Of a stretch of 64,000 bases of DNA, positions 19,883 through 42,909 are shown piece after piece. The first letter of the stretch is position 1, and each line of letters starts with the position of its first letter. A program made the position numbers and the translations under genes. Source of the DNA: Mobula birostris (Eukaryota); the NCBI RefSeq assembly GCF_030028105.1, contig NC_092392.1, positions 21,406,613 through 21,470,612 of the forward strand, written 5' to 3'. The notes below the pieces were generated by a model. That model saw only the letters and a program-made list of their open reading frames with translations. It made no database searches and had not been told where the DNA came from.

Positions 19883-19996
19883 CTCGTCCCGGCACTGCTT
19901 TTGACACATTTGGCAATACCAGCGCAGCTTTTGCAGCCCCTTGGATTTGATGCGGTTGGCGATTGCCTTGGGGGTGAGGAACTCGGCCTTGCCCAT
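19883..19996 (-). CDS. KIN: KIN coding exon 1 (114 bp; MGKAEFLTPKAIANRIKSKGLQKLRWYCQMCQKQCRDE)
   Basis: Within ORF 19769..20035; ATG at 19996-19994; GAG|gtgagt donor; diagnostic Kin17 N-terminus. Confidence 0.97.
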
Positions 19997-20470: not shown

Positions 20471-20511
20471 ATGTTCACTAGAACAGGCGTCCTGGTTTTT
20501 GTGCCCCAATG
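20471..20511 (+). CDS. ATP5F1C: ATP5F1C exon 1 (MFTRTGVLVFVPQW; start of the mitochondrial presequence)
   Basis: Kozak-like ttcaccATG, donor gtaaat; phase joins exon 2 to give PQWGQVRNMATLKDI. Confidence 0.9.
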
Positions 20512-21194
20512 GTAAATTACAAAAAGCTAACTCGGTTTGTCCGTGCAAATCGTCGCGTTTTCCATCTCTCTCTTTGCTTCTAAATGGTGTGCTGCTGTGT
20601 GTTTGTTTTAATTGTGAAGTGAGCTGACCCCAGGTGGGGTGGATCGGGTAACTAGGCCTGTGAGGAAGCTTGGTGGAATGGGAGGTCTGCTTGCTGCCTA
20701 AGCTCGTTTACTTCAACTTTCCACTCAGATTTTGTTTGCTACAATCCCCCTTTCCAGTCTGGACAGGGAAGGTCTTCCTTACGATGTATCTGGTTTCCAA
20801 AAAAAAAGTAAATAAATATGAAAAGCATCAAAATTAAGTAGTGCTCATCAAATCTGTCGGTGTCTGAAGGAAGAAAGACCTTTTATGTGGGACTGTTATC
20901 AATTTATTGTGTATTAAGGGAGGGAAAACCCGATAAAGCATCTAAAACTATGATGGGCATAGGCACAGTAGATAGTTTTTATTCCTGAAGATGGAAATGG
21001 TCAAATATTAGAGGGCGTAGGTTTAAGGTGAAAGGAGGGAAGTATATTTCCAAGGTGTTATTTTTTACAAAGTGGTAGGTGACTGGAACCTGCTGCCAGG
21101 GTAAGTGGTGGGAGATAGGTACGTAGATAAATGGGGGTTGAAGGGATGTAGCTCACGTGCAGGCACGGGGTGAGTCTAAATTGGTCAGCTCAGA

Positions 21195-21570
21195 CATATC
21201 AGAAAGGCAGTGTCCATTATTAAGGACCTCCAGCACCCAGGCATGCCCTTTTCTCACGGTTACCATCAGGTCAGAGGTACAGAAGCCTGAAGGCACACAC
21301 TCAATGATTCATGAGCAGCTTCTTCCCCTCTGTCATCCGATTCCTAAATGGATATTGAAGCTTTGGACACTACCTCACTTTTTTTAACGTATGGTATTTG
21401 TTTTTGCACTTTATTTTAATCTATTCAATATATGTAATTGATTTACTTGTTTATTTTTTTTCTCTCTGCTAGATTATGTACTGCATTGAACTATTGCTGC
21501 TAAGTTCACAAATTTCACATCACATGTTACTGATAATAAACCTGATTCTGATTCTTAATCTGATTCTGAT
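21195..21570 (+). mobile_element. Rex1/Babar 3' end with (CTGATT)n tail
   Basis: Near-identical to 43730-44097; ends aataaacctgattctgattct. Confidence 0.8.
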
Positions 21571-22889
21571 ATGGGCCAAAGGGTTTGTTCCTGTCTTATA
21601 ATATTCTATATTCTGTTCTCAGAATTAAGTAAAGTAATATGGGGGTTAAGTTGCAAGAACAATCAATGCCCAAAATTCTAACCAATCAATCAGTGGGCAT
21701 GAATTCAGATCCAACCATGAAAGTAGGGGCATTTTAAATTCAAGTAATTCAATAAAAATAGAACTAAAAGTGTGTATCAATAATGGTGACTACAAAGCTG
21801 CTGAATTGCTCTTCAGAGAAAGCAACCTGTTGCCCATACCTGGTGTGGGAATGACACAAGTGGTTGAATCATAATTGTCTTCTCAAATGGCCAGGAAGCA
21901 TCTACGTGCAGGGCAATTAGGGAGAGTGAAGAAAGCTTGATTGGATAAATAAAATGAACATCAGTATATACTATTAGTTAGACTGCATGTGTCTTCATAT
22001 TAAAGCCGTTCTACAGAGATCTTTGCCTCATTTGGGCTGCAGTTGCAAACTCTCAAAGAAATTTTTTAAAATCCACTAATTGATACAAAATATAAGTGCA
22101 TTTATAGATAAAACTAACAGTGTCATTTTGCAATTATACTAGTAAATAATTAGCCAAAATATAACTTTGAAATTGTGTAACATAAATCATTTACATTTTT
22201 TTGGAAAAAAATCAGACCAGCAGAACAGGCTACTTGAGTGATGCTTATTGCTTAGAGTTTCCAGGTTTAATTTTATATTATCTGTTGGAAAGCTATCTCA
22301 TTGAGACTACAGCATTTAATGTTCTGTAAAACATTATCTTTCTGTTGAAAGACCAGGAGCTTGGATCAGGTGGAATGCTTTCTCTATCAGATGGTATAAA
22401 CCACAATGATCTTCCATGCTGTAAATTTTTGTGCATGGTGCATGTAAAAGTAGGTCATTGATGGATCCTTTGTTGCATTTGTTATCTGTTTAACAAAAAA
22501 AATCATTCAATATCATTGCAAAAATTGAAAATGTGTGAGAGGTCTGCTTTAAAATTGGATAATAGATGACCAACAGTAATTGTTCTCAACAATAACATTT
22601 TCACTTTGAAGATCAGTAATATTGGAGAGAGAGAGATCTGGTTTACATACTTTTTCTGTTGAGGCTAAAGATTGCAGTTGAAAGTTACTGCAAATATGTT
22701 TGGTTGGAAATATCTCGTATTTTAATGTTTTGTGCAGATACTTTGGTCTGATTTAAAATATCCAAAGAAACAGCTGTATACCTTGTCAATTTCATATGTA
22801 GATGATGGATTTTCAGTAGCCTGGGCTGCTCACCATGGACTCTCAATCCCTTTATATTTCCACCACCATCAGGAAGGTTTGCGAGGGGG

Positions 22890-23740
22890 GACTTCATTTC
22901 TTTCTTGAACAGAGACCTAACTGCTTCCCTTACTTCTGAACACTCATTTGATTATCAAATTCATCCTCATACTTCGCTACTTCTCCTTTGACGTAACACT
23001 CACTTTCTTTAGGTGAAAAGTTGCTACAGAACTCCCTTGGATCCTGGCTATGCCTGCTGTCTTACTGGAGTCCTTGCTCCAGACTTTTTTGGGCCCACTG
23101 TTTCAATTCCTTCTCCAATACACTGGCATTTGCATTGATGCTATATCCTACACCCAGAAAGAACACTAAAAAGTGATCATCTTTGCTGCCAATTTCCATC
23201 CTGTTCTCATGTTTCTGTTATCCATCTCTGACGCTTTCCTTTCTGGTTTTATGTCTTCGTCTCAGGAAATAGACTGGATACAAACCTATTTCACAGGCCC
23301 ATAAACTTACCCAACTAGCTAGACTGAACGTCTTCTCAACAATGCTTCTGTAAGTTTTTTAGTCACTTCTTCTCTGTCACAATTGTTCCATTGAGGCACT
23401 TCACAACTTTCTGGCATGAACATCGAATATATCTACTAGACTTGAGCTGCTCACTCATCATTGCCCGTTATCCTGCTGATATCCATTTATTGCCCCCATT
23501 TGTAATGCTGTGCTAATAGTCAGTATTCATGCTCCTTACCAAGCTCTGTATGAACTGTTGTCTTGCACCTCAACACCATTGCAAACCCACCCCCAGCCAG
23601 CTCTGCCCTGAAATCTGACATCCTTCCAGCTTTCCCAGTATTCTTCCTTAGTTCTGAGAGAAAATTCCTGACTCAAAGCATTAACTGTTTTCTCTTTCCA
23701 CAAATGCTACTTGACAGGATGAATTCTTCCAGCACAGGTG
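22890..23740 (+). mobile_element. Old, highly degenerate Penelope-like fragment
   Basis: Scattered similarity to the 28190-29706 copy and its 3' end. Confidence 0.5.
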
Positions 23741-24153
23741 TCCCCTCATATAACTTGCTGGTGTATTTTATACAAAATATGCCTGTGTCATAATCAATAC
23801 ATTACAACACCATTAAACACTCTTATTTTAAGCCTCTTATTTTACATGGAACCCAACTTTTTCATTGCATCGTCAGAGTCAGGATTGCCAGCAGATAAGT
23901 TGCTTTCTGTTGGTCTTTTGCTAGATTTTTCAGGTATAAAAATGGATCTTAAAATCTCAAAAATCTCAAAATGATCCCCATGAGCACAAGACCAGTTAAT
24001 CTTATTGCACAATTACCCTTTTCATTATTGTGACAGAATGACTGAAATCTATGTTATTGTTTTCTTTTATCTTACTACATATACCCAAAAAACTCCAGAC
24101 TTGCCTGTTTTATTTTAAATTTTATGCTAATATCTATTCTGTTGGTGTTACAG

Positions 24154-24188
24154 GGGTCAGGTCCGAAACATGGCAACTCTGAAGGATA
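24154..24188 (+). CDS. ATP5F1C: ATP5F1C exon 2 (35 bp; GQVRNMATLKD)
   Basis: ttacag acceptor, gtaagt donor; mature N-terminus ATLKDI. Confidence 0.95.
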
Positions 24189-24689
24189 GTAAGTATCATA
24201 TTTTCATAATGACAGAATATTGCTTTACTAATGATTTGCAAGATGCAGATATACATCGGAATAATACACTGTAGCTTTCAAAGATTTTAAGACTCCTGAA
24301 ATGTAATACTTAAAGGTTTCTGCATTGACATCTTGCTTGAGGAGCAATGTAACTGGTAAAATTGGGTGTCAGTTTGGAATTTCATACGGAGCGAGATCGT
24401 GTTGTTGAAAAAGCAAATTTTGTTAAGTAAAGAAAAACTGAAGTACTTAGGTCAGGTAAAAACATTGGTGATAGAATCAGTTAATATTTCAAAAGAGGGC
24501 GAATCATTTGATACTTCAGGTTGCTGATCTTCCTTCTGAACTGAAGGTACTAGGTTGCTTTCCCTATTTTTCACCATTTTCTGTCACCTTTTATATCTCC
24601 AGCATCCAATGTCATCTTGGTTCTAAAATAATATAAGCATTTCTCATGAATCTTGGACATGTACATTGTGGCTTTAATGTATCTCACTG

Positions 24690-25075
24690 GGTGACATGGT
24701 AGCATAGGATTAGCGTAAAGCTTTATAGTGCCAGCGATCCTGATTGGGGTTCAATTCCCACCGCAGTCTGTCAGGTGTTTGTACATTCTCCCCATGACCA
24801 CGTGGGTTTCCTTTCAGTGCTCAGTCTTCCTCCCACGTTCCAAAGATACACAGGTTAGGGTTATTAAATTGTGGCCATGCTATGTTGGCGCTGGAAGCAT
24901 GGCGACACTTGAGGGCTGTGCCCAGCAAAATCCTTGGACTATCGTTCTGAGGATTGTGCTGGAGGCAGCCCACACGTGTTGTCATTTGTTCGTCATTGAT
25001 GCAAACAGTGCACTTCACTGTATATATTTTGATCTACATGTGACAAATACGTTAATCTTTCTCTTTATCTTTATC
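24690..25075 (+). mobile_element. tRNA-derived V-SINE (HE1-like)
   Basis: A box tggtagcatagg, B box gggttcaattcc, V-domain gggtttcc...tcctcccacgttccaaaga. Confidence 0.75.
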
Positions 25076-25471
25076 TGCAATCTTTTAGCTTTACAATAAG
25101 CTTAGAGGTATTAATGGCATGGTTGGCTCTCTTCTAATTAATTTTACCAAAATAAATGAACATAACTTAATACATTCAAAACAAATATTTTGTATTGTGA
25201 CATGATCGAGGTTATTTTCTATTTTTAAAAAGAATGTAGGAGTCTGGTATAACATTGGTGTACTGCATACTTTTTTTTACAAAAGCATAATCTGATTGCA
25301 AATCTCAAATTTGCTCAGTTTAAATACATTTTCACTGAGGGATAATTGTGTAGTTTTGTGAGTCACACAAAAGAAATTACTACAAAATTTCATTAAAAAA
25401 GCTATTACAGTTAATATTGCATTGTAGTGTCAATATAAAAACTATCTGATATTATATTTGTCTGTTTTCAG

Positions 25472-25603
25472 TTACCAGGCGCTTGAAGTCTATCAAAAAT
25501 ATCCAAAAGATCACCCAGTCCATGAAAATGGTGGCTGCAGCAAAATATGCAAGAGCTGAGAGAGAACTGAAGCCAGCAAGAGTTTATGGAACAGGAGCTC
25601 TTG
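25472..25603 (+). CDS. ATP5F1C: ATP5F1C exon 3 (132 bp; [43 protein letters not shown])
   Basis: ORF 25483..25674; ttttcag acceptor, gtacga donor. Confidence 0.97.
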
Positions 25604-26914
25604 GTACGATAACTGCGGCATGCAATTTCACTTTAGAGTTGTGGAAGAGATTGTCTTCCAAGTCATGGATTTAACCTTTGTGGCAGCTAATGTTCAGCTG
25701 AGTGTTTTTTGCAGGATTGCCAAGTACGTAGTATTTTGAGGGGCAGGGGACAAGGACAAATCTGTGGTTTTATTCACTGCAGGCTTTTCCCACTGAGGTT
25801 GAGTGAGACTAGAACTGAACGCCATAGGTTTGGGGTGAAAGGTGAAATATTGAAGGGGAGCCTGAGGACGAAGTCCTTTACTCAGGGTGGTACAAGTGTG
25901 GAACGAGCTGCAAGCAGAAGTGGTGGGTATGGGTTGGATTGCAATATTTAAGAGAATTTTGGATTAGTACATGGATGGGAGTGGTATGGGCTGCTATGTC
26001 CAGGTGCAGGTCAATAGGACTAGTCAGAATAACAATTCGGCATGGACTAGATGAGCTAAAAGGCCCCTTTCTGTGCTGCTGTGCTTCTTGATTAAGCAGT
26101 AAACCCAAAACGCTGGTGGAACTCAGCAAGTTGACAACATCTATGGAGATGAACAAATGGTCAACTTTTTCAGGCTGGGACTCTTCATCAGAACTGGAAA
26201 GGAAGGGGGAAGAAGCCAGATTCTATTATGCCTTTTTGCTGTCAGAGCTAAAATAAATTGGTTTGCTAATGTAACATCTTAAATAATTTCATTAATTTGA
26301 AAGCGACTATTAATTTCTCGTTAGTCCAATAGGGAAGGGGTAGATTATATAAGCGGTTAATTATAGGCCATTCTTTGTCATAGCAGGTTTTCTTTACTGA
26401 GAACTGTTCACAACTCAGACGGTTCACATTGGAAATCCAGTTGCCTGGCAATATATTTAAACAAAAACATGGACAAGCCAAGGCCAAAATGTAGTTAAAC
26501 TGGGGTGTCTAGCTCAACTATTCAGACATTGCCGCAAATTGAATTTCCACATGACAGAAGATACCTGCAGCAGCTGGCAAATCCATCCCCCAAGTCTCCC
26601 AAACAGGTGATTATAACTTGGGCAGCTCCTATAAACAGTGACTTGTAACACAAATGAAGTTCTTTTGCTACACAATCCAGTCTGCATCATTTGAGACATT
26701 CTCACTCCCTTTTTTGTGATTTCTAGCACATTTCATGCTCCAAGTATGTTGCTTTATTTTAATATTATATAACAGATCTGAATAAAGCAGAGATATCAAG
26801 CATGCTGGCACAATCAGGAAACTAGCAGTCAAATGGGCAAAGATGTTTTGGATAATAGTCCTATTCATTTAAAACATTCTCCCAAACCTACTCACATTAA
26901 GTGCAGTCAAAAGT

Positions 26915-27085
26915 GTTGTTGCTCTCCATGCCTTTGTGGCAAATCAGGCAGCAAACTTAGCATTTGACTGTTTTTTTCGAGGCCATTGCTTGCTCAACGC
27001 TTAACCCAGCACGGATGGAAAGCTTGCAAGGAGCCGGCCAGATTTGAACCCGGGACCACTCATCTCAAAGTACGGCATGAATGTA
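26915..27085 (-). mobile_element. SINE of the same family as 35697-35961
   Basis: Minus-strand B box ggttcaaatc, then ccatccgtgctgggttaagcgttgagcaagcaa. Confidence 0.6.
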
Positions 27086-27223
27086 GGTGGGATCCATGTC
27101 ACAGAAAGCAAGCAGGAAAAGATTCTGCTACTAAGAGTGAACAAAGCACTAGGGTAGCAATGTGAGACGAACATGTGATTGAATGGATTGTTATCTAGTA
27201 GGATGTGGCTATTACATAGGCAG

Positions 27224-27420
27224 TGCTTGGTGTTCATCCTTAATTGCCCTTGAGAAGGATGTGGTGACAGCTGAATGGGTTGCTCAGCCATTTCAGAGGG
27301 CAACTAAATGTCAACCAGGTAAAGGCTGGGCAGAAAAGCTAACAGATTTCCACCTCTAAGAGCATCATTGAGAAGTGTAGTATTCCAGATGCCATTCCAT
27401 TGGGACTAGTGTCATTGTAA
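27224..27420 (-). mobile_element. Old Deu-domain-type SINE fragment (related copy ~21700-21930 on plus)
   Basis: ccttaattgcccttgagaagg...ccatttcagagggcaac motif; family assignment is from memory. Confidence 0.45.
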
Positions 27421-27855
27421 GTGGTTTGGGAGTTATTGAAGGACGTTCAGAGCATTGAAACTGATGATCAAACAAAGTTAAAGATAGTAATTTATATTCA
27501 TCCTGGCTGGATTTTTTTTTATTTAAGTATGCGTCTCAGTCTTGGTAAGCTAATCACCTTGGAGCATTGAGAGATTTGTTTTGTGGCATGTATATGCATC
27601 TTGAGAAATACCTTGTAGCTGTGCGTGCTTGCTGTTTCTCTTACTACAGGTCTTGAAACTGGAGTCTACGGCTGGCATTTCCTCAGCTTTCCCAATGTCT
27701 GATTTTTTTCCATTATAGAGCAATTTATAGGATCTTATTGGCTTGCAAGCTTGGTGTTTTAAATAATTGATGTTATCACCAAAAACAATTTACAACTGTT
27801 TTTATACAGCACTGCATAGATGCAACCTTTTAATGTTTGCTCTGTTTCTCCCAAG

Positions 27856-28060
27856 CTCTGTATGAGAAAGCAGAAATTCAACCCCCTGAAAACCAAGCTA
27901 GACACCTGATTATTGGAGTATCCTCTGACCGTGGTCTATGTGGTGGGATCCACAGTAACATTGCTAAAAACATAAGGAATCAAATACAGGAATTGACTTC
28001 TGCAGGTAAAGAGATCAAGGTCGCTACTATTGGAGAAAAGCTAAGAGCACTGCTGTATAG
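27856..28060 (+). CDS. ATP5F1C: ATP5F1C exon 4 (205 bp; LYEKAEI...HLIIGVSSDRGLCGGIHS...LRALLYR)
   Basis: ORF 27837..28064; SSDRGLCG motif; ctcccaag acceptor, gtaagt donor. Confidence 0.97.
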
Positions 28061-28189
28061 GTAAGTATATCGTGGCTTTCTGAAAATACATCCTTGAAAA
28101 ATATGAAGTTCATAGTGTTTTAGCCAAAAGCACATTATGCTGGTCTTTTGGTATAAATGTTTATTAAATTTGATTTCCTGGTGATGTTC

Positions 28190-29706
28190 CGTGCTTTGTA
28201 GAACAATCTATGTTCCGTGCCTATTCTGGTATCTGTCCCCCACTTTTCCTTCGCTACATCGACGACTGCATTGGCGCTGCTTCCTGCACGCATGCAGAGC
28301 TCGTTGACTTTATTAACTTTGCCTCCAACTTTCACCCTGCCCTCAAGTTTACCTGGTCCATTTCCGACACCTCCTTCCCCTTTCTAGATCTTTCTGTCTC
28401 TGTCTCTGGAGACAGCTTATCCACTGATGTCTACTATAAGCCTACTGATTCTCACAGCTATCTGGACTATTCCTCTTCTCACCCTGTCTCTTGCAAAAAC
28501 GCCATCCCCTTCTCGCAATTCCTCCGTCTCCGCCGCATCTGCTCTCAGGATGAGGCTTTTCATTCTAGGACAAGGGAGATGCCTTCCTTTTTTAAAGAAA
28601 GGCGCTTCCCTTCCTCCACTATCAACTCAGCTCTTAAACGCATCTCCCCCATTTCACGTACATCTGCTCTCACTCCATCCTCCTGCCACCCCACTAGGAA
28701 TAGGGTTCCCCTGGTCCTCACTTACCACCCCACCAGCCTCCGGGTCCAACATATTATTCTCCGTAACTTCCGCCACCTCCAACGGGATCCCACCACTAAG
28801 CACATCTTTCCCTCCCCCCTCCCCCCTGCATTCCGCAGGGATAGCTCCCTACGCAACTCCCTTGTCCATTTGTCCCCCCCGGTCCCTCCCCACTGATCTC
28901 CCTCCTGGCACTTATCCGTGTAAGCGGAACAAGTGCTACACATGCCCTTACACTTCCTCCCTTACCACCATTCAGGGCCCCAAACAGTCCTTCTAGGTGA
29001 GGCAACGCTTCACCTGTGAGTCAGCTGGGGTGATATACTGCGTCTGGTGCTCCCGATGTGGCCTTTTATATATTGGCGAGACCCGACGCAGACTGGGAGA
29101 CCGCTTTGCTGAACACCTATGCTCTGTCCGCCAGAGAAAGCAGGATCTCCCAGTGGCCACACATTTTAATTCCACATCCCATTCCCATTCTGACATGTCT
29201 ATCTACGGCCTCCTCTACTGTAAAGATGAAGCCACACTCAGGTTGGAGGAACAACACCTTATATTCCGTCTGGGTAGCCTCCAACCTGATGGCATGAACA
29301 TTGACTTCTCTAACTTCTGCTAATGCCCCACCTCCCCCCCCGTACCCCATCTGTTACTTATTTTTATGCACACATTCTTTCTCTCACTCTCCTTTTTCTC
29401 CCTCTGTCCCTCTGAATATACCCCTTGCCCATCCTCTGGGCCCCCCCCCCGTCTTTTTTCCCGGACCTCCTGTCCCATGATCCTCTCGTATCCCTTTTGC
29501 CTATCACCTGTCCAGCTCTTGGCTCCATCCCTCCCCCTCCTGTCTTCTCCCATCATTTTGGATCTCCCCCTCCCCCTCCAACTTTCAAATCCCTTACTCA
29601 CTCTTCCTTCAGTTAGTCCTGATGAAGGGTCTCAGCCTGAAACGACGACTGTACCTACAGATGCTGCCTGACCTGCTGCGTTCACCAGCAACTTTTATGT
29701 GTGTTG
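28190..29706 (+). mobile_element. Penelope-like element, 5'-truncated (RT C-half, CKRNKCYTC linker, GIY-YIG, 3' UTR with hammerhead)
   Basis: ORFs 28210..28896 (RYIDD), 28427..28996 and 28997..29323 (VIYCVWC...LYIGETRRRLGDRFAEH); one frameshift and one stop. Confidence 0.94.
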
Positions 29707-30518
29707 TTTTAGTAGAGGTGTTAGTTTATCATCTTAAGTGCTTTACTGCACTCTTTAACAAAGTAACAAAATGTGAATAATTTAAATAATTATTTTCCAG
29801 AGTATCACTTTAAGACCTGTGTAACATTTCTTTGACTTTGCCCTGATATGCAGTGCAGAAACAGGATCTTCAGCCCAACTGATTGATGTCAATCAAGGTG
29901 CCAACCTGAGCTAGACCCATTTGTCTGCATTTGGCTCATGCAAATTCCTGTGCTGGACGGATATTACTTGTTGGATGAATATTCAGTACATTACACTCCC
30001 CAAATTTAAACTGAAAATTGAGTATTCATATTTTCAGAGTGAAGAATTGGGACGATCCTTAAGATTTCTTACAAAACATTAATTATATATTTGAATTGGC
30101 ATTGTTGTTATTGAAACAAACAACTATCTGCAAAATAATTTTGAGTTCATTCACTCTTATTTTTAAGGTACAGTTCCACTGATTTATAGCAGTAACAATC
30201 TTCAATTACAATAGGCTAAAGGTTTATGGAAGTTGTAAAACCAAATTCAAAAAGTACTGAGAAGTTAGCATATAATTGTACGATAAATACAAGATGCCAG
30301 ACTTTTAACCTTTTGCGTCCACCTGGCTTCACCTATTACCTTCCAGCTCATCCTCCTTTCTCGCCCCCCCCACCTTTTCATTCTGCTGCCTGCTTCCTTC
30401 CTTTCCAGTTCTGAAGAAAGGTCTTGGCCCAAAACATTGACTGTTTATTAATTTCCATCGATACTGTCTGACCTGCTGAGTTCTGTGTGTGTGACCTGGA
30501 TTTTGTTTTAAATTGCAG

Positions 30519-30662
30519 AAATTATGGAGGTAATATCCTGTTGATGTTTAAGGAGGTGGGCCGGAAACCACCGACATTTGGTGATGCTTCATTCATTGCC
30601 ACTGAGCTCCTCAACTCGGGCTTTGAGTTTGATAAAGGTTCTATTATCTTCAACAGATTTAA
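30519..30662 (+). CDS. ATP5F1C: ATP5F1C exon 5 (144 bp; [47 protein letters not shown])
   Basis: Translated by hand; ttgcag acceptor, gtaagt donor; [13 protein letters not shown] motif. Confidence 0.96.
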
Positions 30663-31866
30663 GTAAGTTTGTCAGAATGAACGTATTAATGCTGTTTTAA
30701 AATTTCTGCGTCAAAACCTGTACCTTGCTTGTCCCCATCCAACACAGTTACCATGCCTCATGGCATTGTTGAAGTGTTGTTATTATCCAAAACTGTCTCC
30801 TTTATTAAACTTGCCATTGCCATCACTCCTGTTTACCTACTCCAATTGCTGCTGTAAATTTTGTGTGGTACTAGTTCTTATGGTCCATATCTTATAAGAC
30901 ATAGGAGCAGAAGTAGGCCATCGAGCCCATCCAGTCTGCTCCACCATTATGTCCTTACTTTCATTTTCATTTCCTCCATACGGACTTTTGCCTTGATTAT
31001 CATTACAAAATAAATTTCTATTTTAACAGTAACAGTATAGTGCCCTAATTCCATTGACTGAACGTAGAACAATACAGAACAGAGGCAGGCTATTTGGCCT
31101 GCAATGTTTTGCCAAACTAGATAAAAAGCAAATCAGAAACAACCAGACAGTAATCCCTCCTACCTACACCATGTCCATATCCCTCCATCTTCCTCACATC
31201 CATGCCTATCTAAACGTCTGTTAAGCCTCTAATATATTTGCCTCTACCTCCATACCAGGCAGCGCATTCCAGGCATCTATGACACAGAGTAAAAAAACTT
31301 GTCTCTCACATCCCCCTTGAACCTATTCCCTTTCACCTTCAATGCATGCCCTCTGGTATTAGGTATTTCAATCCTGGGAAACAGCTCCTCTCTGTCCACT
31401 CTATCTATGCCTTTCATAATCTTGTAGACCTCTAGCAGTAGTAGCACTGCCTCAACATCTATCATCAAAGATCCCCACCTCTCTAGACATTCAAGGTACT
31501 CTCATCTTTCCATCCCCATTCTTCCTTCTAACAGGAACATGCCTTTCCTATACTCTGTGCCATTGATCTTTAAACACCCTCTACACGTCTGATGTGGACT
31601 TACCAGAGTAAAGTTGTTCCCAATTAAAACTTCATTGTTCCTACCTAATGCCTGCGTAATTTGGCCTACTCCAATTTAAAACTCTTCCTACGAGGATCAT
31701 ACCTGCCCTTGTCTCTAGCTATCCTGAAAGTTAAGGAGTTGTGGTCATTGTCGCATAACTGTTTATCCACTGAAAAGTCAGTCATCTGGCCAGGCTCATT
31801 ACCCAACACCAGGTCCAGTATGACTCCTCCTCGCACTAGGCTGTCCATATATTGATTTAAGAAATG

Positions 31867-33862
31867 CTATAACCTTATAACAATTACAGCACGGAAACAG
31901 GCCATCTCGGCCCTTCTAGTCCGTGCCGAACGCTTACTCTCACCTAGTCCCACCGGCCTGCACTCAGCCCATAACCCTCCATTCCTTTCCTGTCCATATA
32001 CCTATCCAATTTTTCTTTAAATGATGATATCGAACCTGCCTCTACCACTTCTACTGGAAGCTTGTTCCACACAGCCACAGCTCTCTGAGTAAAGAAGTTC
32101 CCCCTCGTGTTATCCCTAAACTTTTGCCCCCTAGCTCTCAACTCATGTCTTCTTGTTTGAATCTCCCCTACTCTCAATGGAAAAATGCCTATCCACGTCA
32201 ACTCTATCTATCCCCCTCATAATTTTAAATACCTCTATCAAGTCCCCCTTCAACCTTCTACGCTCCAAAGAATAAAGACGTAACTTGGTCAACCTTTCTT
32301 TGTAACTAAGTTGCTGAAACCCAGGTAACATTCTAGTAAATCTTCTCTGTACTGTCTCTATATTATTGACATCTTTCCTATAATTCGGTGACCAGAACTG
32401 TACACAATACTCCAGATTGGGCCTTACCAATGCCTTGTACAATTTTAACATTACATCCCAACTCCTATACTCAATGCTCTGATTTATAAAGGCCAGTATA
32501 CCAAAAGCTTTCTTCACCACCCTATCCACATGAGATTCCGCCTTCAGGGAACTATGCACCATTATTCCTAGATCACTCTGTTCTACTGCATTCTTCAATG
32601 CCCAACCAGTTACCATGTACGTCCTATTTTGATTAGTCCTACCAAAATGTAGCACCTCACCTTAGCATTAAACTCCTTCTGCCATCTTTCAGCCCACTCT
32701 TCTAACTGGTCTAAATCTCTCTGCAAGCTTTGAAAACCTGCTTCATTATCCACAATGCCACCTATCTTAGTATCATCTGCATACTTACTAATCCAATTTA
32801 CCACCCCATCATCCAGATCATTAATGTCTAGGACAAACAACGTTGGACCCAGTACAGATCCCTAAGGCACACCGCTAGTCACCGGCCTCCAACCTGACAA
32901 ACAGTTATCCACCACTACTGTCTGGTATCTCCCATCCAGCCACTGTTGAATCCATTTTACTACTTCGATATTAATACCTAACGATTGAACCTTCCTAAAT
33001 AACCTTCCATGTGGAACCTTGTCAAAGGCCTTACTGAAGTCCATATAGACAACATCCACTGCTTTACCCTTGTCAACTTTCCTAGTAACCTCTTCAAAAA
33101 ATTCAATAAGATTTGTCAAACATGACCTTCCACGCACACATCCATGTTGACTGTTCCTAATCAGACCCTGTCTATCCAGATAATTATATATACCATCTCT
33201 AAGAATACTTTCCATTAACTTACCCACCACTGATGTCAAACTTACAGGCCGATAATTGCTAGGTTTACTCTTAGAACCCTTTTTAAACAACAGAACAACA
33301 TGAGCAATACGCCAGTCCTCCGGCACCTTTTCTAAAGACATTTGAAATATTTCTGTCAGAGCCCGACTTCCCTCAGGGTCCTAGGGAATATCCTGTCAGG
33401 ACCCGGAGACTTATCCACTTTTATGTTCCTTAAAAGCGCCAGTACTTCCTCTTCTTTAATCATCATAGTTTCCATAACTTCCCTACTTGTTTCCCTTACC
33501 TTACACAATTCAATATCCTTCTCCTTAGTGAATATCGAAGTATTGTTCAAAATCTCCCCCATCTCCTTTGGCTCCACACATAGCTGTCCACTCTGATTCT
33601 CTAAGGGACCAATTTTATCCCTTACTATCCTTTTGCTAATAATATAACTGTAGAAACCCTTTTAATTTATTTTCACCTTACTTGCCAAAGCAACTTCGTA
33701 TCTTCTTTTAGCTTTTCTAATTTCTTTCTTAAGATTCTTTTTACATTCTTTATATTCCTCGAGCACCTCATTTACTCCATGCTGCCTATATTTATTGTTG
33801 ATATCTCTCTTTTTCCGAACCAAGTTTTCAATATCCCTTGAAAACCATGGCTCTCTCAAACT
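31867..33862 (-). mobile_element. Relatively young CR1 LINE (RT and C-terminus) nested in older CR1 fragments (~31060-31865, ~33930-34520)
   Basis: ORFs 33662-33859, 33356-33577, 32862-33341, 32610-32840 (SKYADDTK), 32143-32655 and 31944-32201. Confidence 0.92.
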
Positions 33863-35371
33863 CCAGAGTTACAGAATACACTTAACAAAATCATGTTTTT
33901 ATTTTTAATTCTCCTTGCATTCTCATTAAAGGTCCCAGTTTATGTTAGGGAAGTTGAAATACCCCCATGACAACAGCCCTATTATTTTTGCACATTTCCT
34001 TAATCTGATTACATATCTGTTTCTCAAATGTCCCCGTGGCTCTGTAGTACAATCCCCTCTGTGTGTTTGCACCTTTCCTGTTCCTGAGTTCCATCCAAAT
34101 GGATTCCGACCCCTTTATTATGTCTCTCCTAAGTGCAGCTGTGATATTATATCTGATTATGATTACTAGTAACCTCTTCCCACCCCCACTACCATCTCCT
34201 ATCTTTTCTAAAACTTCTAAGATCAGAGGACACAGCCTTTTGGAATGTTAGAATGGAGATGAGAAGGAATTTCTTTAGCCAGAGAGTAGTGACTCTGTAG
34301 AATTCATTGCCACAGGCATCTGTGGAGGCCAAGTCTTTATGTATACTTAAGGCAGAGGCTGATAGATTCTTGATTGATCAGGGCAAGAAGGGATACGGGG
34401 AGTGGCGGGGGGAAAGCCTGGAGATTGGGGCTGAGACAAAAAATGGATCAGCCATGATGAAATGGCAGTAGAGACTCAATCGGTCAAATGGCCTAATTCT
34501 GCTCCTGTATCATATGGTCTAATCGAAAACCTGGTGCATTCCTGCCCCTCTCTCAACCAAGTTTCAGACTGCTTTTGTGAAATTTTACTTTATTGTAACT
34601 CAATGCAGGTATCCAATTAGCTTCATAATCACTATTATAACTCTCCAAGGACTTGCCTTACTGATAACATTTGCAGGCACATGGCTTGCTTCAAGTGTAT
34701 TCAAGAAAAATTCTAACTCACTGTCACCTTCAGCATCTGAGCAATGTGATAATTGGTTTACAGCTACCGAGTTACAGTGAAAATCATTTGTTTTTGCATG
34801 CTGGCCATTCAGATCATTTCACTAGTAGAAGGGTAAAGCAGTAACAGAAACTAGTACATTCCAGTCTTGATGAAAGGTCTTGGCCCGAAACGTGGACTGC
34901 TTACCCTTCCGTAGAAGCTGCCTGGTCTGCTGAGTTCCTTCAGCATTTTGTGTGTGTCATTTTGGATTTCCAGCATCCACAGAATTTCTCATGTTTGTGG
35001 AACAGAAACTGATGTTACAGCTACAGAGAAAGTGCAGTGCAGGCTTGACAAAGTAGGTTGTGAGGTCAAGAATCAATCTTATCATATATGGGGTCCATCA
35101 TATTGTACAAGATGTCTGAATGTAAAACAAAAACATTCAGCTTTAACAAGAGAAAGCATTAACATGAAAACAACATGAGGTTACTCATTCTTACCTAATG
35201 TACTATTCAAAACTGACTCGTAAGACAAACTATTGTGTTGACATTGGCCATTGAACTTTTACTTGCTTTCAGGAACAGGCAATGTCAATGCGCTTAGCTA
35301 AGCAATCCTCTAAAGATTGCCCATGATCCTTACCTTGAATACTGTCACAATTGAATTATATTTATTTTTAG

Positions 35372-35436
35372 ATCTGTGATTGCATACAAGACTGAGGAAC
35401 AACCAGTGTTTTCCTTCGATGCCCTGACAGGTTCTG
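35372..35436 (+). CDS. ATP5F1C: ATP5F1C exon 6 (65 bp; SVIAYKTEEQPVFSFDALTGS)
   Basis: tttttag acceptor, gtgagt donor; phase consistent. Confidence 0.94.
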
Positions 35437-35696
35437 GTGAGTAAATATGCTGCCTGCAAGATAATTAAATGAATTTACTGTTACAAGTTTATAAAAATAA
35501 TTGAGGAGAGAAAAAGCATGATATCTCAATTTGTACTGAATAAAAAGTCATAGAGTACAGAACATTACTGCACGGAACAGTCGCCACAGTGTAGGATCTT
35601 TTACCCTACTTTAAGCTCAATCTAACCGTTCTCTCCATTTTTCTATCATCATGTGCCTTTCTAATAGTTTTTTAAGTAATACTCATGTGGTATTTG

Positions 35697-35961
35697 GGTT
35701 GGCTGGTGGCGTAGTGAGATCAGCGCCGGGCTCGAGAATGGAGGTTTCCGAGTTTGATCTAGTGACAGACCGCCCCCGTGCGCACTCGCCATCCGCGCCG
35801 AGTTGACGTCAAGCTCGCAACTCGGCCTTGTAAAATAGCACTGCAAAATGTCTGTGCGAGGAGTGGCGCTCCATACAGCCTTTAGAACTGCGCCTTGCAA
35901 GGCATGAAAATGCCCGACGCTGGCCTCTCAGGTCTGAGTCGACGTCATTGTCATCATCATG
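35697..35961 (+). mobile_element. CpG-rich tRNA-derived SINE with (TCA)n tail
   Basis: A box tggcgtagtg, B-box-like gagtttgatc; imperfect TSD atgtg(g)tatttg. Confidence 0.75.
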
Positions 35962-37099
35962 ATGTGTATTTGCCTCTTTTACTTCCCCTGGCAGGGCATT
36001 CCACACACCCATCCCTCTGTGTAATGAACTTAACCATGAAATCCCCCATACCTTAAGAAATTATTTCCCCTTGTATGAGACATTTTCAACCTGGCAAAAA
36101 GTCTCTAGCTATCCACTTGATCTATACCTAGCCATTTGAGTTTCATATTTATTACTTTTGTGCAAATTTGTGGGTAGATTCTGTTGACAAAGCATGTACC
36201 ACTCTTCCTATTTAAATTTCAAACTGTTCAGGTCCTGTGTCTCCCATTCTGAATCTGATTTGTGCTGTGTGACTCAGCTTACAGCGAGTAGGTGCACATT
36301 TATTCCTTTGATTGGTGGAGGCTGACAGGGTGACACCCGTAACAAGTGGTCTGTTCATAGGAATTCTAGAATTGTCGAGTATTAGAAGAATCGGTAAATA
36401 TCTATTAGGCTCCTCATTGGGTGATTGATAATATGTTGGAAATCATAATCTTTTCTGATCCTGTGTACTAAGTTGAGATCCCATTAAAAATTGTTGAAAT
36501 ACTGGGTTATCATCGAGGCCCAAGGAAGCACAGGCTATACGCTATTAAGAGAGCTAGTCACTCTTTCATGAATCTTCCATGCACCAAGTTTCTTGATGCC
36601 GAATGCAAGATGCAATTCTTTTGAATGTCTTTCACAATTTGGAGAAAGTTTACTTTTTATGATAAATAATGAGCAGTTCATTTGGTAATTATTTCCTTTA
36701 AATTTATTAATTATGAATTATGTATGTTTATGCATAGTGGAATTGATTTCTGAATTTCATAATAAAAAGTATTTACAATAATTAACCATATAATGCCTTT
36801 TTATTCTTGCATTTATAGCAGTGCATTTCATGTTAAATTACATTATTTAAATCAATAACAATGTGTCCCCCTGAGGTGGTACATTACTACAACAAATGAG
36901 GGGCGTCCTCACCCAGCCATGACAAACACATGATCATAAAGCCTAAATGTGTTTAATTATACTTACATTTTGTGTGTTGGGATATATATATAACGCAAAA
37001 TGTGGAATATGGTGCAATTTTTTTCGGATGATCAAGTTATTTTACTTGTACACAGCGGAAGTAATCTGGCTATTAACCATATGTTAATTTTATTTCTAG

Positions 37100-37255
37100 A
37101 GAACATGAGCGTTTATGATGACATTGATGCTGACGTTCTGCGGAACTACCAAGAGTTCTCTCTGGTGAACATCATCTACTTTGGGTTAAAGGAGTCTACT
37201 ACAAGTGAGCAGAGTGCCAGGATGACTGCCATGGATAGTGCCAGCAAGAATGCCG
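37100..37255 (+). CDS. ATP5F1C: ATP5F1C exon 7 (156 bp; [19 protein letters not shown]...[21 protein letters not shown])
   Basis: ORF 37000..37278; ttctag acceptor, gtaagg donor. Confidence 0.97.
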
Positions 37256-38029
37256 GTAAGGAACTTGCATCAATTTAGATGATCGTTTAGTTTAACATAT
37301 TTATCTACTGAAAAGATGAGGTGTTATGGTAAATGAAGATTCATTTTCCGGGTACCCCGTGCGCAACAAATTAACCGTTCTGGACAGGTGACATAAGGAG
37401 CATTACAATTCATCCTGAGGTTCCTGGATTTAAAAAGAAACAAGTTGTCCTTTTTGATTCAATAATTTGTGAACATTCAGAGAGGTCATGGGTTAGGGTG
37501 GGACACGATTGAATAGTGATTTGTGCTCTCTGAATGCCTGCATGACCTGCGTATGACACAATAAAGCAGGCAGTGCCAAAACGTACATATCCAAGAAAAA
37601 AAGAATCTGTACCTTCAGAAGCATTGAAAGTTACTTTTGATGAGGAGAGAGATTATCTTTCTGACCTTGCCATGTTCATACTGTTTCGTGACAAGAAAAA
37701 CTTGGGATATCCCTCAGTAGATTGGAGTTTCTGAAGAAGCAAGTTGGAGGGAGGATGCATCTAGTCTTTCATCTCATGGTTGTTTGGATTGCTTTTCTTT
37801 TGTTCCAGATGTTGACTGTATTGTGTTAAGGTAGATATTCATTTTGTTTCTAAACTTTTCTAAATTGTGCATTTAAATTTGAGAAGCCCCTGTCAGGGTA
37901 ATATCATCAGTCCAAAATATTCCTGTACTACTTATTCTCATTGGGCATCTCTAACTGCTTCCAAGCATTGTTGTCCAATGCAATCCTGCATCTATGTTCA
38001 GCATTGTATTCACTCTTTAATACCAGAGT

Positions 38030-38323
38030 GCCATGGTAGTGTAGCGGTTAGTGCAACGCAATTACAGCTCAGGACATCGGAATTTCAAGTTCAGTCCCAG
38101 CATTCTTGGTAAGGAGTCTGTATATCCTCTCCATGGAATGCATGGGTTTTCTCTGGAAGCTCCGGTTTCCTCCCACAGTCCAAAGATGTACCGGTTAGTA
38201 GGTTAATTGGTCATTGTAAATTGTTCTGTGATTAGGTTGGATTTAATGGGGGGGGGGAGGGTTGTTGGGCGTCACGATTCGAAGGGCCTATTCAATGTTG
38301 TAGCTCTAAATAAATAAATAAAT
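38030..38323 (+). mobile_element. V-SINE (HE1-like) with (TAAA)n tail
   Basis: A box tggtagtgtagcgg; V-domain gctccggtttcctcccacagtccaaaga...ttaattgg. Confidence 0.8.
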
Positions 38324-38764
38324 ATGCATGATGTTATATTTCAAAATAGGCTGGTTCAGCTGTAAAAACTCTGGTACCCTGGGTTATATTGTTCTCTCTT
38401 GACCCCACCTTACTATACAATTATTCTCCTCCACATGCCTTGCCTCTAATTCTGAGTAGAGAAGAGGTACTTGCCACCAGGATGGGAAACTTGGAGGAGT
38501 GAAAAGCCATCTATTCAACTCTTAGAACCCTTGCACTTTTAATCTGCCTCACCGCATTTACGCAGCAGTTTAATCTGGCATTTTATGTATCTCCTTGTCC
38601 TGCAGTTTGGATAAGATGTGTTTGCAATTGACCATTTATCTCAAATGTTGACTTTCCAGATGGGAGCAATGTTTGAACAGATTTAATGTGAAAGCAAATA
38701 GTTTCAGGTAACTTGGCGCTGTTGGTTGATAAGTGTTTTTTTAATATAAAATGCAGAATATAAG

Positions 38765-39050
38765 GCAGCATGTAGCAGATGGTACATTGCTTTTCAGTGC
38801 CAGCAATCACCAATCAGGGTTCAAATTCATGCTAATGCTTGTAAGGCGTTTGTACGGTCAGCCCATGATCCCATGAAACACATTCTAAAGTGTACACTTA
38901 GGGTTAGTAAGTTGTGGGCATGCTATGTTGTCACTGGAAGTATGACAACACTTGTAGGCTATCTGCACAATCCTCCCCGATTTGACTTGACGTCAATGAT
39001 ACATTTCACTGTATGTTTCAATGTACATGTGACAAAGCTAATCTTTTAAT
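38765..39050 (+). mobile_element. Degenerate SINE related to 24690-25075
   Basis: agggttcaaattc and ttgtgggcatgctatgttg shared with the 24.7-kb copy. Confidence 0.6.
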
Positions 39051-39154
39051 TTTATCTTTGAATACTATTTACTGTAAGAAAGCAGAGTTCCAAATGTTGG
39101 ACAAAGAAATGATAAAGGTATAAAGGAAATAATGTGACCTGTTGTTGAATTTAG

Positions 39155-39251
39155 CTGAAATCATTGACAAGCTGACGTTGACGTACAACCGCACTCGCCA
39201 GGCTGTCATTACCAAGGAACTTATTGAGATTATCTCTGGTGCTGCTGCTCT
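39155..39251 (+). CDS. ATP5F1C: ATP5F1C exon 8 (97 bp; [32 protein letters not shown])
   Basis: atttag acceptor, gtaagt donor; C-terminal gamma signature [16 protein letters not shown]. Confidence 0.97.
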
Positions 39252-40136
39252 GTAAGTATTATGCTGAACATGGTTGTGAATTAATGTATAGTGGAAAAAA
39301 ATAACAGTCAAACTAAAGAACCAAGAAGAAATATATACTGCAAAATCAAATTGAGGCTTTAGGTCAAATCTAGATCCTAGAATGTAAAGGTTTTATTTCA
39401 GAATAATTAAGCCAGAATTTAATTTTATGCCATGAACTTTGTTAGACCTTGATTGTCTTGAATACCTCAGACCTTGCAAAATAATTATTGGTTTATAAGT
39501 CAGATAGTCTTGGCCATTTCATTAACCAGTTAGGTCATTAAAAAAATATTAAACTTATGTTGCATTACAGTAAATGGTGACTATTTTTGATCCAAAACGA
39601 GTGTAATTTGACTGTTCCATAAGATTCCAGAAACTTACAATAAAAATGTACAACCAGAAATTTCATTAATGAAACTTACATTTTTCTTGCAAGAACCAAG
39701 AACCACCATTGTGCTACTTCCTGGAGAAAGTCAGCAGGTCAGGCAGCACCAATGGAAAAGAATAACCAGTTGACGATTCGGGCCAAGACCCTTGGTCAGG
39801 ACTGGAAAGGAAGAGGGAATACGTCAGAATAAAAAGCTCTTCTTCCCCTCCTCCACCTTTTTATTCTGGCATCTTCTCCCTTCCTTTCCAGTCTTGGCAA
39901 AGGATCTCGACCAGAATCATCGACTGTTCATTCATTTTCATAGATGTTGCCTGATCTGCTGAATTCCTCCAGCATTTTGTGTGTATTGCTCTGGATTTTC
40001 AGCATCTGTAGAATCTCTTGTGTTTATATTTAATACTGCTCCTTTCCAAATACCTATTTTCTTTGAAACACGAATTTGCAGCTTAAATTTTTTCGGGCCT
40101 GGGATTCCATGCACAGAATAATTTCTGCAATGTTCT

Positions 40137-40304
40137 NNNNNNNNNNNNNNNNNNNNNNNNNNNNNNNNNNNNNNNNNNNNNNNNNNNNNNNNNNNNNNNN
40201 NNNNNNNNNNNNNNNNNNNNNNNNNNNNNNNNNNNNNNNNNNNNNNNNNNNNNNNNNNNNNNNNNNNNNNNNNNNNNNNNNNNNNNNNNNNNNNNNNNNN
40301 NNNN
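40137..40304. other. Assembly gap (168 N) in ATP5F1C intron 8
   Basis: Run of n. Confidence 0.99.
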
Positions 40305-41140
40305 TCTTTGGAAGAAATGTTCTTAGAACACTTTTCATAATCTTGAATGTTTTGATCATATAGGAATTCTGCTTCTCACTCTATTTATATTTTACCAATT
40401 AAGTTGCTTTCCCTTTCCTCATCTCAGATATGTATCTGTTCGCATTTATACAACTAATTGAATCTGGCATCTAATTTTCTATTTTACATAGTTTTTAGTA
40501 GTTCACCTTGTTGTGTGTCTACTTATTATGTGCCCCTGTCTGGTTATGTTAACTCTGTTAACTCATTGCTTGAGATTTGTGTGGCATTAAATTACATTCA
40601 GTTAGAGGTTATTTGTACCTTATTATTAGTTATACTGAATGAATGCTGCTGCGATTAAACTACACACCTACATTTCTAGATATAAGGCCCTAATTAAATT
40701 GCTTATCATGGATCTTGCATTGTCTGTCTTCTGTTGCAATGGACTGGTTCATTTGAAGACAGTGTGTTTTAAGAGAGCACCCTCACTCCTGGGCTCTGGT
40801 GCCTGTTGCTAGACCCTCAACCACCCTATTTCAGATCTGTTTCTGCAGCAGACCCCACAAACCAAACTAATCAATTCCTATTGAAATTGGAAAAACCAGT
40901 TGCAGTGCACCAAGAAATGCACTGAAGAAAGGGTAGTTATTGTGAGTAATGGAATGTAAATATTATTTTTCAGCTGTTTTGTCTACATCTGCAATTTTCG
41001 TAGAGCTTTGCACACAGCTTTTAGGATCTGGTTTCCTGTTTCTGTTTGCTGTTTTGAGCTTAATTTAGCTATTGTCACAACTGCATTGCATGTATAACTT
41101 CATGAATCATTACTCTGCTTTTTGTTTCTATGATTGCAAG

Positions 41141-41177
41141 GAGTTTTTAAACTTGCAGCAACATGTAATCCATAGAG
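41141..41177 (+). CDS. ATP5F1C: Putative ATP5F1C cassette exon 9 (37 nt; coding part 41141-41150 gives ...AAALSF*)
   Basis: Pyrimidine tract plus ttgcaag acceptor; GAG|gtaata donor. Same length as the mammalian liver-type exon 9 as I recall it; TGCATG at 41087-41092. Confidence 0.65.
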
Positions 41178-41573
41178 GTAATAGTTTATTCTTGCTAATT
41201 GCTATTTTTAGTACACATGGAAAAAAGAAAAAAATCTGCTGTGTTAATCATACAACAATTGGTAGTAATGTGTGTGATAGTTTTGCTTCTAGGAATTCAA
41301 GCTATTGTAGATAGAAAAAGAATAATCAAGCTTTATTCCAATTGTAGTTGCAAATTTAATTAGCAATGCAATTAGAAGTGCTAAGGCACAAAAGGCAGAT
41401 CACATTTTGGATGTGTAAAATAAATATTTATTTTAAATGGTATTGAAGTGATTAAATTTTTGATCTGCCTAGACTATGGGGGGGGGGGGGGAGAAAAGCT
41501 AAAAGGTTTGAAAACACATTTTGTCTTCAGATAGGAAATAATCTTAAGAGGTTTGCATGTGTTGAATTTGCAG

Positions 41574-41577
41574 GTAA
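41574..41577 (+). CDS. ATP5F1C: ATP5F1C terminal exon, coding part (CT|G TAA; 292-aa precursor when exon 9 is skipped)
   Basis: tttgcag|GTAA followed by a short 3' UTR and AATAAA. An alternative acceptor ending at 41530 gives the same Leu-stop. Confidence 0.75.
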
Positions 41578-41692
41578 CAATGATGATCCAGGAAGACCTA
41601 AATGAAAAAGAATGAAATCCTCCCTGTTCGAAGATTATGATATGAAATTTCTACTGAATTTGTGGAAATCTAAAGTTTGTAAATTATCATAC

Positions 41693-41698
41693 AATAAA
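41693..41698 (+). terminator. ATP5F1C polyadenylation signal AATAAA (a second one at 41853-41858)
   Basis: AATAAA ~115 nt after the stop, followed by a T/GT-rich downstream element (ttttttgtgtt). Confidence 0.75.
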
Positions 41699-42909
41699 AC
41701 CTGACAGTGAATGACTCATTTTTGTGTTATATCTCTTTCATTGCTAACAGTTAGGTACAGTTTTCTTTGAGAGTAGCATTACATAAATCATTTCCAAGAT
41801 CTTACTGAGATTAGCCCACTGATTTTTCATGAAACATAATTGTTGATATCTCAATAAACTGCATTTTTCTTAACACTCATGGTCCACTTACTCAGTGAAT
41901 CCGTATTTTAGAAGTATGTGCTCAGGGAATACTTGCTTCAAGGACACTCAAAAGGAAGGATCATTTACCCACCTGGTACTCAGGTTGTATGATACCGGTA
42001 GAGGGTTCGAAAGAAGTTCTACACTGGTTCTTGGACTCAGTTGTTTAATTATTTTCACCCGTGCTGGAGTTAGTTACAGTAAATCCTTTTGGTTAAAACT
42101 GATCTTTTCAAGGACTATTTGTGGCACACATATGGGTGCTCCACAGAGAGGGAGTAAAGAAAAAGGGAAACTGGGAGTATGCAATAAGCCGCAGGGAATC
42201 AACTGGAGGAAGTCTAATGTGGGCAGTGAAGTGTGACAGTGGAATCTAGAGGAGTCTGCAGCCAATCAGAAGTAGTTTTATTATCACTGATACATTGTGA
42301 AATTTCTTTTACAGCAGTAGTACAGTGCAATACATTAAAAATGTATTAGCCACATAAATATTTTTTTTAATTACCATAGATGTTGCATAATCAGATTGAA
42401 TTAATTCAGAATTTGTCGATTGAAACGTCAGATTCCTAGTTTCCTGGTAATAGCAAAATACTGAAATGTAGTGAACCCAGGCAAGGAATAATACTGTCTG
42501 CTTAAGCCACCTTGATGAGCAAAGGACCTTTCAGTTGGCACTGTTGCTTTACTACCAAGGATTTGGAAACAATATGTACTTAAAAAAACAGCTTACTGAG
42601 CCATCAGTATTTTTAATCAGATGTTTCCTTTCTATTCATCTGCTTCAGAATTGGGTTTATTATCACTGGCATATGTCATGAAATTTGTTGGTTTGTGGCA
42701 GTGCAATACATAAAATATACTATAAGTTACAGTAAAAAATATTTTAAAATTAGTGCAAAAAGAGAGCAAAATTATGAACTTGGACTGTTCCAAAATCTGA
42801 TGGCAGAGGGGAAGACACTGTTTTTAAAATGTTAAGTGTGTGTCTTCAGACTCCTGTACCTCCACCCCATTGGTAGTAATGAAAAGAGGGCATGACCTGG
42901 ATGGTGAGG

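What the first reader, a model, noticed from the sequence alone, without database searches (positions are those of the whole stretch)
41087..41183. Probable ancient ATP5F1C tissue-switch exon with a different C-terminus (LSF*)
Seen: a 37-nt AG/GT-bounded exon candidate with an in-frame stop. TGCATG lies ~50 nt upstream, and the donor GAG|GTAATA mismatches U1 at -3, +5 and +6. Known: mammalian F1-gamma has a short exon 9 (37 nt as I recall) that adds one Asp in the liver form. It is skipped in muscle and heart through RBFOX binding to GCAUG in intron 8, and it has a weak donor. Inference: the switch predates the cartilaginous/bony fish split. Size and regulation appear conserved while the added residues differ (Ser-Phe versus Asp), hinting that the RNA-level event matters more than the Asp.
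Basis: partly seen in the sequence, partly recalled or inferred. Interest (0 to 1): 0.72.

Follow-up and report, generated by a model that had tools for sequence, protein, structure and literature searches.

The report
Ancient ATP synthase gamma cassette exon
This ray's ATP synthase gamma gene carries a 37-base stretch with the same size, position and flanking splice signals as the optional exon that gives humans separate heart and liver forms; it would add Ser-Phe instead of Asp, so the optional exon is likely as old as jawed vertebrates and the added residue likely matters little, but its use in this species and its tissue control are untested.

Summary
Confirmed in sequence. The window holds the single ATP5F1C gene of a ray (its exons give the RefSeq Mobula birostris protein exactly). 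Bases 41141-41177 form a 37-nt AG/GT exon candidate reading L-S-F-stop, with TGCATG 54 nt upstream and a donor that misses U1 at -3, +5, +6, as the human one does. Human and mouse exon 9 work out at 37 nt from published coordinates. RefSeq models of two sharks and a skate end in AAALSF, so the exon is likely real and orthologous. The N stretch holds no rival exon. Across vertebrates the added residue is D, N, G, S, A, T, H, E or SF, which supports 'the Asp is not the point' but does not prove an RNA-level function. Verdict: a new member of a well-studied splicing event, already in automated annotation of relatives; modest interest.

The parts
20471..37255 (+). ATP5F1C coding exons 1-7 (20471-20511, 24154-24188, 25472-25603, 27856-28060, 30519-30662, 35372-35436, 37100-37255)
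   Evidence: One AG/GT chain reproduces P0001; only ATP-synt locus found in G000
39155..39251 (+). Exon 8, ends in phase 2 within the last Leu codon; donor TCT|GTAAGT
   Evidence: joint 39251>41574 GT..AG in run X5
41087..41092 (+). TGCATG, RBFOX-type motif 54-49 nt upstream of the cassette exon
   Evidence: one of only two GCATG in the 2322-nt span; 1.6% of window AGs have TGCATG within 60 nt; binding untested
41069..41140 (+). AG-free zone, pyrimidine tract and AAG acceptor of the cassette exon
   Evidence: 72-nt AG-free zone, 70% pyrimidine in the last 23 nt
41141..41177 (+). 37-nt cassette exon (exon 9): completes Leu, adds Ser-Phe-stop, then 27 nt of 3' UTR
   Evidence: AAALSF endings in P0006, P0030, P0009, P0043; inclusion in this species not seen
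41175..41183 (+). Weak donor GAG|GTAATA (U1 mismatches -3, +5, +6)
   Evidence: human GAG|gtaaag from PMC2665233 and PMC2018636
41554..41559 (+). Second TGCATG, in intron 9, 14 nt before the exon 10 start; role unknown
41574..41712 (+). Exon 10: supplies G-TAA (Leu-stop) in the skip form, then 3' UTR; AATAAA at 41693
   Evidence: high-depth contigs 41574-41712 (X1) and 41574-41707 (X2)

Best explanation
Bases 41141-41177 are a 37-nt AG/GT-bounded, stop-containing stretch between exons 8 and 10 of the ray ATP5F1C gene that is likely the orthologue of mammalian cassette exon 9, likely repressed by RBFOX binding to the upstream UGCAUG, and predicted to add Ser-Phe when included. Shown: skipping joins exon 8 to exon 10 and gives ...AAAL* (292 aa). 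Predicted: inclusion gives ...AAALSF* (294 aa) and lengthens the 3' UTR; the stop lies 27 nt before the last junction, so the mRNA would escape nonsense-mediated decay (50-55-nt rule, recalled), which caps the exon's length. Inferred from the human gene: RBFOX bound in intron 8 blocks early spliceosome assembly at the weak exon 9 donor, so muscle and heart skip the exon. Inferred from annotation: in sharks and rays inclusion is likely a minor or tissue-restricted form, and selection likely keeps the splice architecture more than the residue.
For: Same slot and phase as human exon 9, near the last exon (intron 9: 396 nt here, 648 human, 608 mouse). Human and mouse exon 9 = 37 nt, derived from two supplements (685-648 and 645-608). 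Same donor mismatches as human GAG|gtaaag. Only Ser-Phe-stop acceptor in the span, and RefSeq X1 proteins of Chiloscyllium plagiosum, Scyliorhinus canicula and Amblyraja radiata end AAALSF. Only AG of 3738 with TGCATG within 100 nt plus a 37-nt donor; 72-nt AG-free zone. Skip joint 39251>41574 in X5. Four Fox-1_C loci in G000. Of 233 retrieved proteins, 55 add one residue: D 20, N 12, G 12, A 3, T 3, H 2, S 2, E 1. In register with the human exon start, the ray stop falls on the second of two tandem human stops.
Against: No SF-ending protein for 18 of 21 elasmobranch species retrieved, Mobula birostris and M. hypostoma among them. Contigs of X2, X3, X4 and X15 run unbroken through the exon. 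Nucleotide likeness to the human exon is not significant: 9 of 20 in register, reached at 8.7% of intron positions. In relative X15 the exon has 3 differences in 37 nt (all after the stop) and donor +6 differs, against about 3% over the whole stretch. Donors of 5-6 of 9 also occur at 4 of the 8 constitutive exons, so weakness alone is not diagnostic. The SF and one-residue endings are gene-model proteins; their DNA was not seen. No tissue labels were available.
Confidence: 0.7

Rival explanations
1. The exon is the true orthologue but is leaky or decaying in rays: rarely included in any tissue, with no working switch, kept only because it does no harm.
For: No SF protein in Mobula or 16 other species; only the skip joint seen, and contigs bridge the exon unbroken; AAG acceptor; exon no better conserved than flanks in X15.
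Against: Ser-Phe-stop is shared by a ray genome, a skate and two shark orders; length, donor type and UGCAUG are all kept; X15 keeps the coding letters, AG, GT and TGCATG among the 40 differences shown (7 not shown); one X5 contig begins exactly at 41141, a weak hint of a splice branch there.
Confidence: 0.2
2. The switch is conserved for its protein product: any short extension at the tip of the gamma axle tunes the motor in non-muscle tissue, whatever the residue.
For: An extension of 1-2 residues recurs in all major jawed-vertebrate groups sampled; PMC7969005 proposes a role for the Asp (passage); the abstract of PMC2576389 credits the C-terminal tip with half the torque.
Against: [quoted passage not shown] These assays used bacterial and chloroplast enzymes.
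Confidence: 0.25
3. The elasmobranch exon arose independently of mammalian exon 9 and only looks alike.
For: No significant nucleotide likeness to the human exon start; different peptide; a 37-nt AG/GT pair arises about once per intron of this size.
Against: Equal length, same slot, same AG|GTAA donor with -3G and non-G +5, upstream GCAUG and a stop in register would all have to recur.
Confidence: 0.06
4. Chance AG/GT pair, or the true exon lies in the N stretch.
For: No inclusion junction for this species.
Against: The N stretch is a C/T simple repeat without a usable exon; the reading matches AAALSF proteins of three relatives.
Confidence: 0.02

Closest known systems
Human ATP5F1C (ATP5C1, F1-gamma) cassette exon 9 (PMC2018636, PMC2665233, PMC7969005)
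   Same: Same gene and slot, 37 nt, in-exon stop, GAG|GTAA donor with -3G and non-G +5, GCAUG in intron 8, short intron 9, skip form ending AAAL*.
   Different: Adds Ser-Phe, not Asp; one GCATG in intron 8 against four in human; a TGCATG just before exon 10; inclusion appears uncommon in elasmobranch annotation, whereas human inclusion is the liver/other-tissue form; regulation untested here.
RefSeq isoform X1 models XP_043570052.1 (Chiloscyllium plagiosum), XP_038667809.1 (Scyliorhinus canicula), XP_032896038.1 (Amblyraja radiata)
   Same: End in AAALSF, exactly what the window exon would give.
   Different: Automated models without tissue or regulatory data; no such model was retrieved for Mobula; their exon DNA was not seen.
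One-residue-longer gamma isoforms of bony vertebrates (zebrafish NP_001315480.1 D, Xenopus tropicalis NP_001016407.1 G, gecko H, sturgeon A, bowfin N)
   Same: Long and short forms differing only after ...SGAAAL.
   Different: One residue, not two; that they come from the same exon is inferred, not tested.

Membership tests
ATP5F1C exon 9 orthologue | Gene is the ATP5F1C orthologue | tested here: met
   Exon chain gives P0001 exactly; single locus; KIN17-type exon upstream on the opposite strand and TAF3-type exon downstream (human order recalled)
ATP5F1C exon 9 orthologue | Short stop-containing exon between exon 8 (phase 2) and the last exon, 37 nt | tested here: met
   human and mouse size
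ATP5F1C exon 9 orthologue | Skip form exists as RNA | tested here: met
   joint 39251>41574 GT..AG in X5, 1 of 4 runs laid on that span
ATP5F1C exon 9 orthologue | Inclusion form exists | tested here: inconclusive
   AAALSF models in 3 of 21 elasmobranch species; no junction in 8 laid contig sets, which drop minor forms
ATP5F1C exon 9 orthologue | Nucleotide homology with the mammalian exon | tested here: inconclusive
   9 of 20 matches to a published human primer, not significant; no vertebrate genomes on hand
ATP5F1C exon 9 orthologue | Adds one Asp | tested here: not met
   Adds Ser-Phe; the residue is also not Asp in 35 of 55 one-residue forms, so this is a mammalian trait, not a defining one
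RBFOX-repressed, muscle-skipped cassette exon | (U)GCAUG in the upstream intron and RBFOX genes present | tested here: met
RBFOX-repressed, muscle-skipped cassette exon | Skipped in heart/muscle, included elsewhere, dependent on RBFOX | not testable with these tools
   Runs carry no tissue label; needs raw RNA-seq or a minigene
U1-independent intron (human F1-gamma intron 9 type) | Donor departs from consensus at -3 and +5 | tested here: met
   PMC2665233, which also says the donor sequence is not the only determinant
U1-independent intron (human F1-gamma intron 9 type) | Spliced without U1 snRNP | not testable with these tools
   Needs U1-inactivated extract or oocytes

The most novel reading that the evidence does not exclude
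ATP5F1C exon 9 is a jawed-vertebrate-wide RNA switch, an RBFOX-gated, U1-independent exon of fixed 37-nt length whose job lies in the mRNA (3' UTR or junction mark), with the added residue free to drift; in sharks and rays skipping is the default, and broad inclusion in non-muscle tissues came later in bony vertebrates.
Probability: 0.25. Interest if true: 0.55.

Novelty: new member of a known kind. Interest (0 to 1): 0.32.

Why it matters
The heart and liver gamma isoforms have been explained by a single Asp, with no settled function. If the exon's size, donor and RBFOX motif have lasted since sharks and mammals split while the residue wandered through nine endings, experiments should look at the mRNA, not the Asp. 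The ray donor also gives a natural test of whether the one well-documented U1-independent intron is ancient. The event itself is well known and the SF form is already in automated annotation, so the gain is depth and a testable reframing, not a new system.

Tried and rejected
No RNA holder listed: none of 20 runs is on record as RNA; 8 of 20 were laid. No inclusion joint was listed in either lay (15 of 56 joints shown, the list crowded by a repeat; none); depth over the exon in X1, X2, X3, X5 is accounted for by intron-spanning contigs, but exon 8 or exon 10 is itself missing from several runs, so holes prove nothing. Intron 9 contigs of X1-X4 and X6 end at 41603, as expected if only the skip junction was left in the assembly graph (my inference, assumes 31-letter words; assemblers drop minor forms). 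True exon in the N stretch: rejected. RNA structure around the exon: z 0.32, rejected. Repeat or second copy: one match in G000; no retrocopy by Pfam search. Conservation of the 83 nt upstream in X15: no listed difference, p about 0.07, not significant. Dating beyond jawed vertebrates: three protein searches listed no chimaera, lamprey or hagfish protein (120 of 578 and 120 of 496 listed). Literature on this exon in cartilaginous fish: 0 papers; searches listed none on it; subscription journals and bioRxiv supplements are not covered. Earlier scan notes: nothing relevant.

Full report
Gene and species. A Pfam ATP-synt search of the own genome gave 4 matches, all in this window. One chain of AG/GT-bounded exons from 20471 to 39251, joined to the exon at 41574, reproduces the 292-aa RefSeq protein of Mobula birostris, P0001, exactly. 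A KIN17 zinc-finger exon lies upstream on the opposite strand and a TAF3-like exon at 58023-58193, the order I recall for human ATP5F1C.

Observation. Every stated feature is present: TGCATG at 41087-41092, acceptor AAG|G at 41141, 37-nt exon to 41177, donor GAG|GTAATA with mismatches at -3, +5, +6. Exon 8 ends in phase 2. Skipping gives AAAL*, inclusion AAALSF* with the stop 27 nt before the last junction. Chance: 27 of 3738 AGs in the window have a 6-of-9 donor 37 nt on, so size alone means little; but only this one also has TGCATG within 100 nt, and its 72-nt AG-free zone is reached by 2.4% of AGs. It is the only AG in the 2322-nt span that reads Ser-Phe-stop. The 161 bases around the exon occur once in the genome.

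Evidence that the exon is used. RefSeq isoform X1 proteins of Chiloscyllium plagiosum, Scyliorhinus canicula and Amblyraja radiata end in AAALSF: two shark orders and a skate. That is 4 of 29 elasmobranch proteins and 3 of 21 named species. The other 18 species, both Mobula among them, gave only AAAL. These are automated models and I could not see their DNA; the link to this exon rests on the exact peptide match. In sequencing runs (8 of 20 laid, all contigs, none on record as RNA, no tissue labels) run X5, whose listed intron and exon contigs match the window letter for letter, shows the GT..AG joint 39251>41574 at depth 1561, so skipping is shown. Contigs of X2, X3, X4 and X15 pass through the exon unbroken. 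One X5 contig starts exactly at 41141, a weak hint of a branch. Inclusion in this species is therefore neither shown nor excluded.

Comparison with mammals. PMC2665233 (parts 1-3 of 4 read) and PMC2018636 (parts 1-2 of 5 and passages) show that human exon 9 is skipped in muscle, that Fox-1 bound to GCAUG in intron 8 (four copies) blocks E-complex formation on intron 9, that the donor is GAG|gtaaag with -3G and +5A, and that setting it to consensus removes both U1 independence and Fox-1 control; the paper notes conservation only in human, mouse and cow. PMC2777236, PMC5840707, PMC5964235, PMC10943486 and bioRxiv 2021.07.19.452956 (passages) repeat or extend this. PMC7969005 (passages and supplement passages) adds PUF60 and suggests a role for the Asp. 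The supplement of PMC5389685 (rows) puts the exon 9 and exon 10 acceptors 685 nt apart in human and 645 in mouse; PMC8563012 gives intron 9 as 648 and 608 nt; both differences are 37. Nucleotide likeness is not significant: a published human exon 9 primer matches 9 of 20 in register, as do 8.7% of intron positions. In that register the human exon has two tandem stops and the ray stop falls on the second, which would explain two residues against one.

Residue drift. Of 233 retrieved proteins, 164 end at AAAL, 55 add one residue (D 20, N 12, G 12, A 3, T 3, H 2, S 2, E 1), 4 add SF, 3 have long tails and 7 lack the motif. The set is the top of three searches with ray, shark and skate queries plus cluster members, not a fair sample. 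N occurs in platypus, sugar glider and a panda model, G in frogs and turtles, H in geckos. PMC3536650 (passages) reports that 12 or more C-terminal residues can go without stopping rotation; the abstract of PMC2576389 credits the tip with half the torque. So the Asp itself is not conserved, but a role for any short extension is not excluded.

Mechanism. Shown: gene structure, splice signals, skip junction, four Fox-1_C loci in the genome. Inferred from relatives: inclusion gives LSF. Inferred from human: RBFOX at the UGCAUG represses the weak donor in muscle and heart. Inferred from recalled rules: the short exon keeps the stop inside the NMD-safe zone, which limits its length but does not explain exactly 37. 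Against a simple copy of the mammalian pattern: the SF form is missing from 18 of 21 species; in relative X15 the exon has 3 differences in 37 nt after the stop against about 3% overall (p about 0.11), with coding letters, AG, GT and TGCATG unchanged among the 40 differences shown, 7 not shown; 4 of 8 constitutive donors score as low as or lower than this one. No RNA structure stands out.

Novelty. No paper on this exon in cartilaginous fish was found (0 hits; none among the listings), but subscription journals, splicing databases and bioRxiv supplements were out of reach, and the SF isoform is already in RefSeq. Earlier scan notes held nothing relevant. Verdict: real exon, very likely the orthologue (about 0.9); RBFOX-type tissue switch in rays likely but untested (about 0.6-0.7); new member of a known kind; interest 0.32.

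Noticed in passing
RefSeq clusters; window 39252-39257: Many vertebrates carry two separately numbered isoforms with an identical AAAL-ending protein, also in species that have a third, longer form. A third splice form must exist. Reading from exon 8 into intron 8 gives the same protein, as would a tandem donor 4 nt further on; neither was tested.
   Followed up: partly
window 41554-41559: A second TGCATG sits 14 nt before exon 10, in its acceptor region. The only two GCATG in the 2322-nt span both lie just upstream of an acceptor, and none of the 7 constitutive acceptors has one within 150 nt.
   Followed up: partly
window 41162-41170: Alternative donor CAT|GTAATC would give a 24-nt exon with the same LSF ending.
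   Followed up: no
P0121, P0013, P0101, P0149, P0155, P0157: Coelacanth, lungfish, bichir, reedfish and paddlefish X1 models also end at AAAL, with no longer form retrieved, like most sharks and rays; inclusion may be low in several early-branching lineages.
   Followed up: no
window 40300-41573: Low-depth contigs cover the 3' part of intron 8 and all of intron 9 in most laid runs, consistent with unspliced RNA at the 3' end (or DNA carry-over).
   Followed up: no
window 39650-40040: High-copy repeat inside intron 8 attracts thousands of contigs; LINE-like reverse transcriptase fragments lie at about 28174-29320 and 18700-19275.
   Followed up: no
window 19772-20110 (-) and 58023-58193 (+): First exons of KIN17-like and TAF3-like neighbours; a sturgeon gene model (P0158) fuses ATP synthase gamma to the TAF3 exon, probably an annotation error.
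   Followed up: partly
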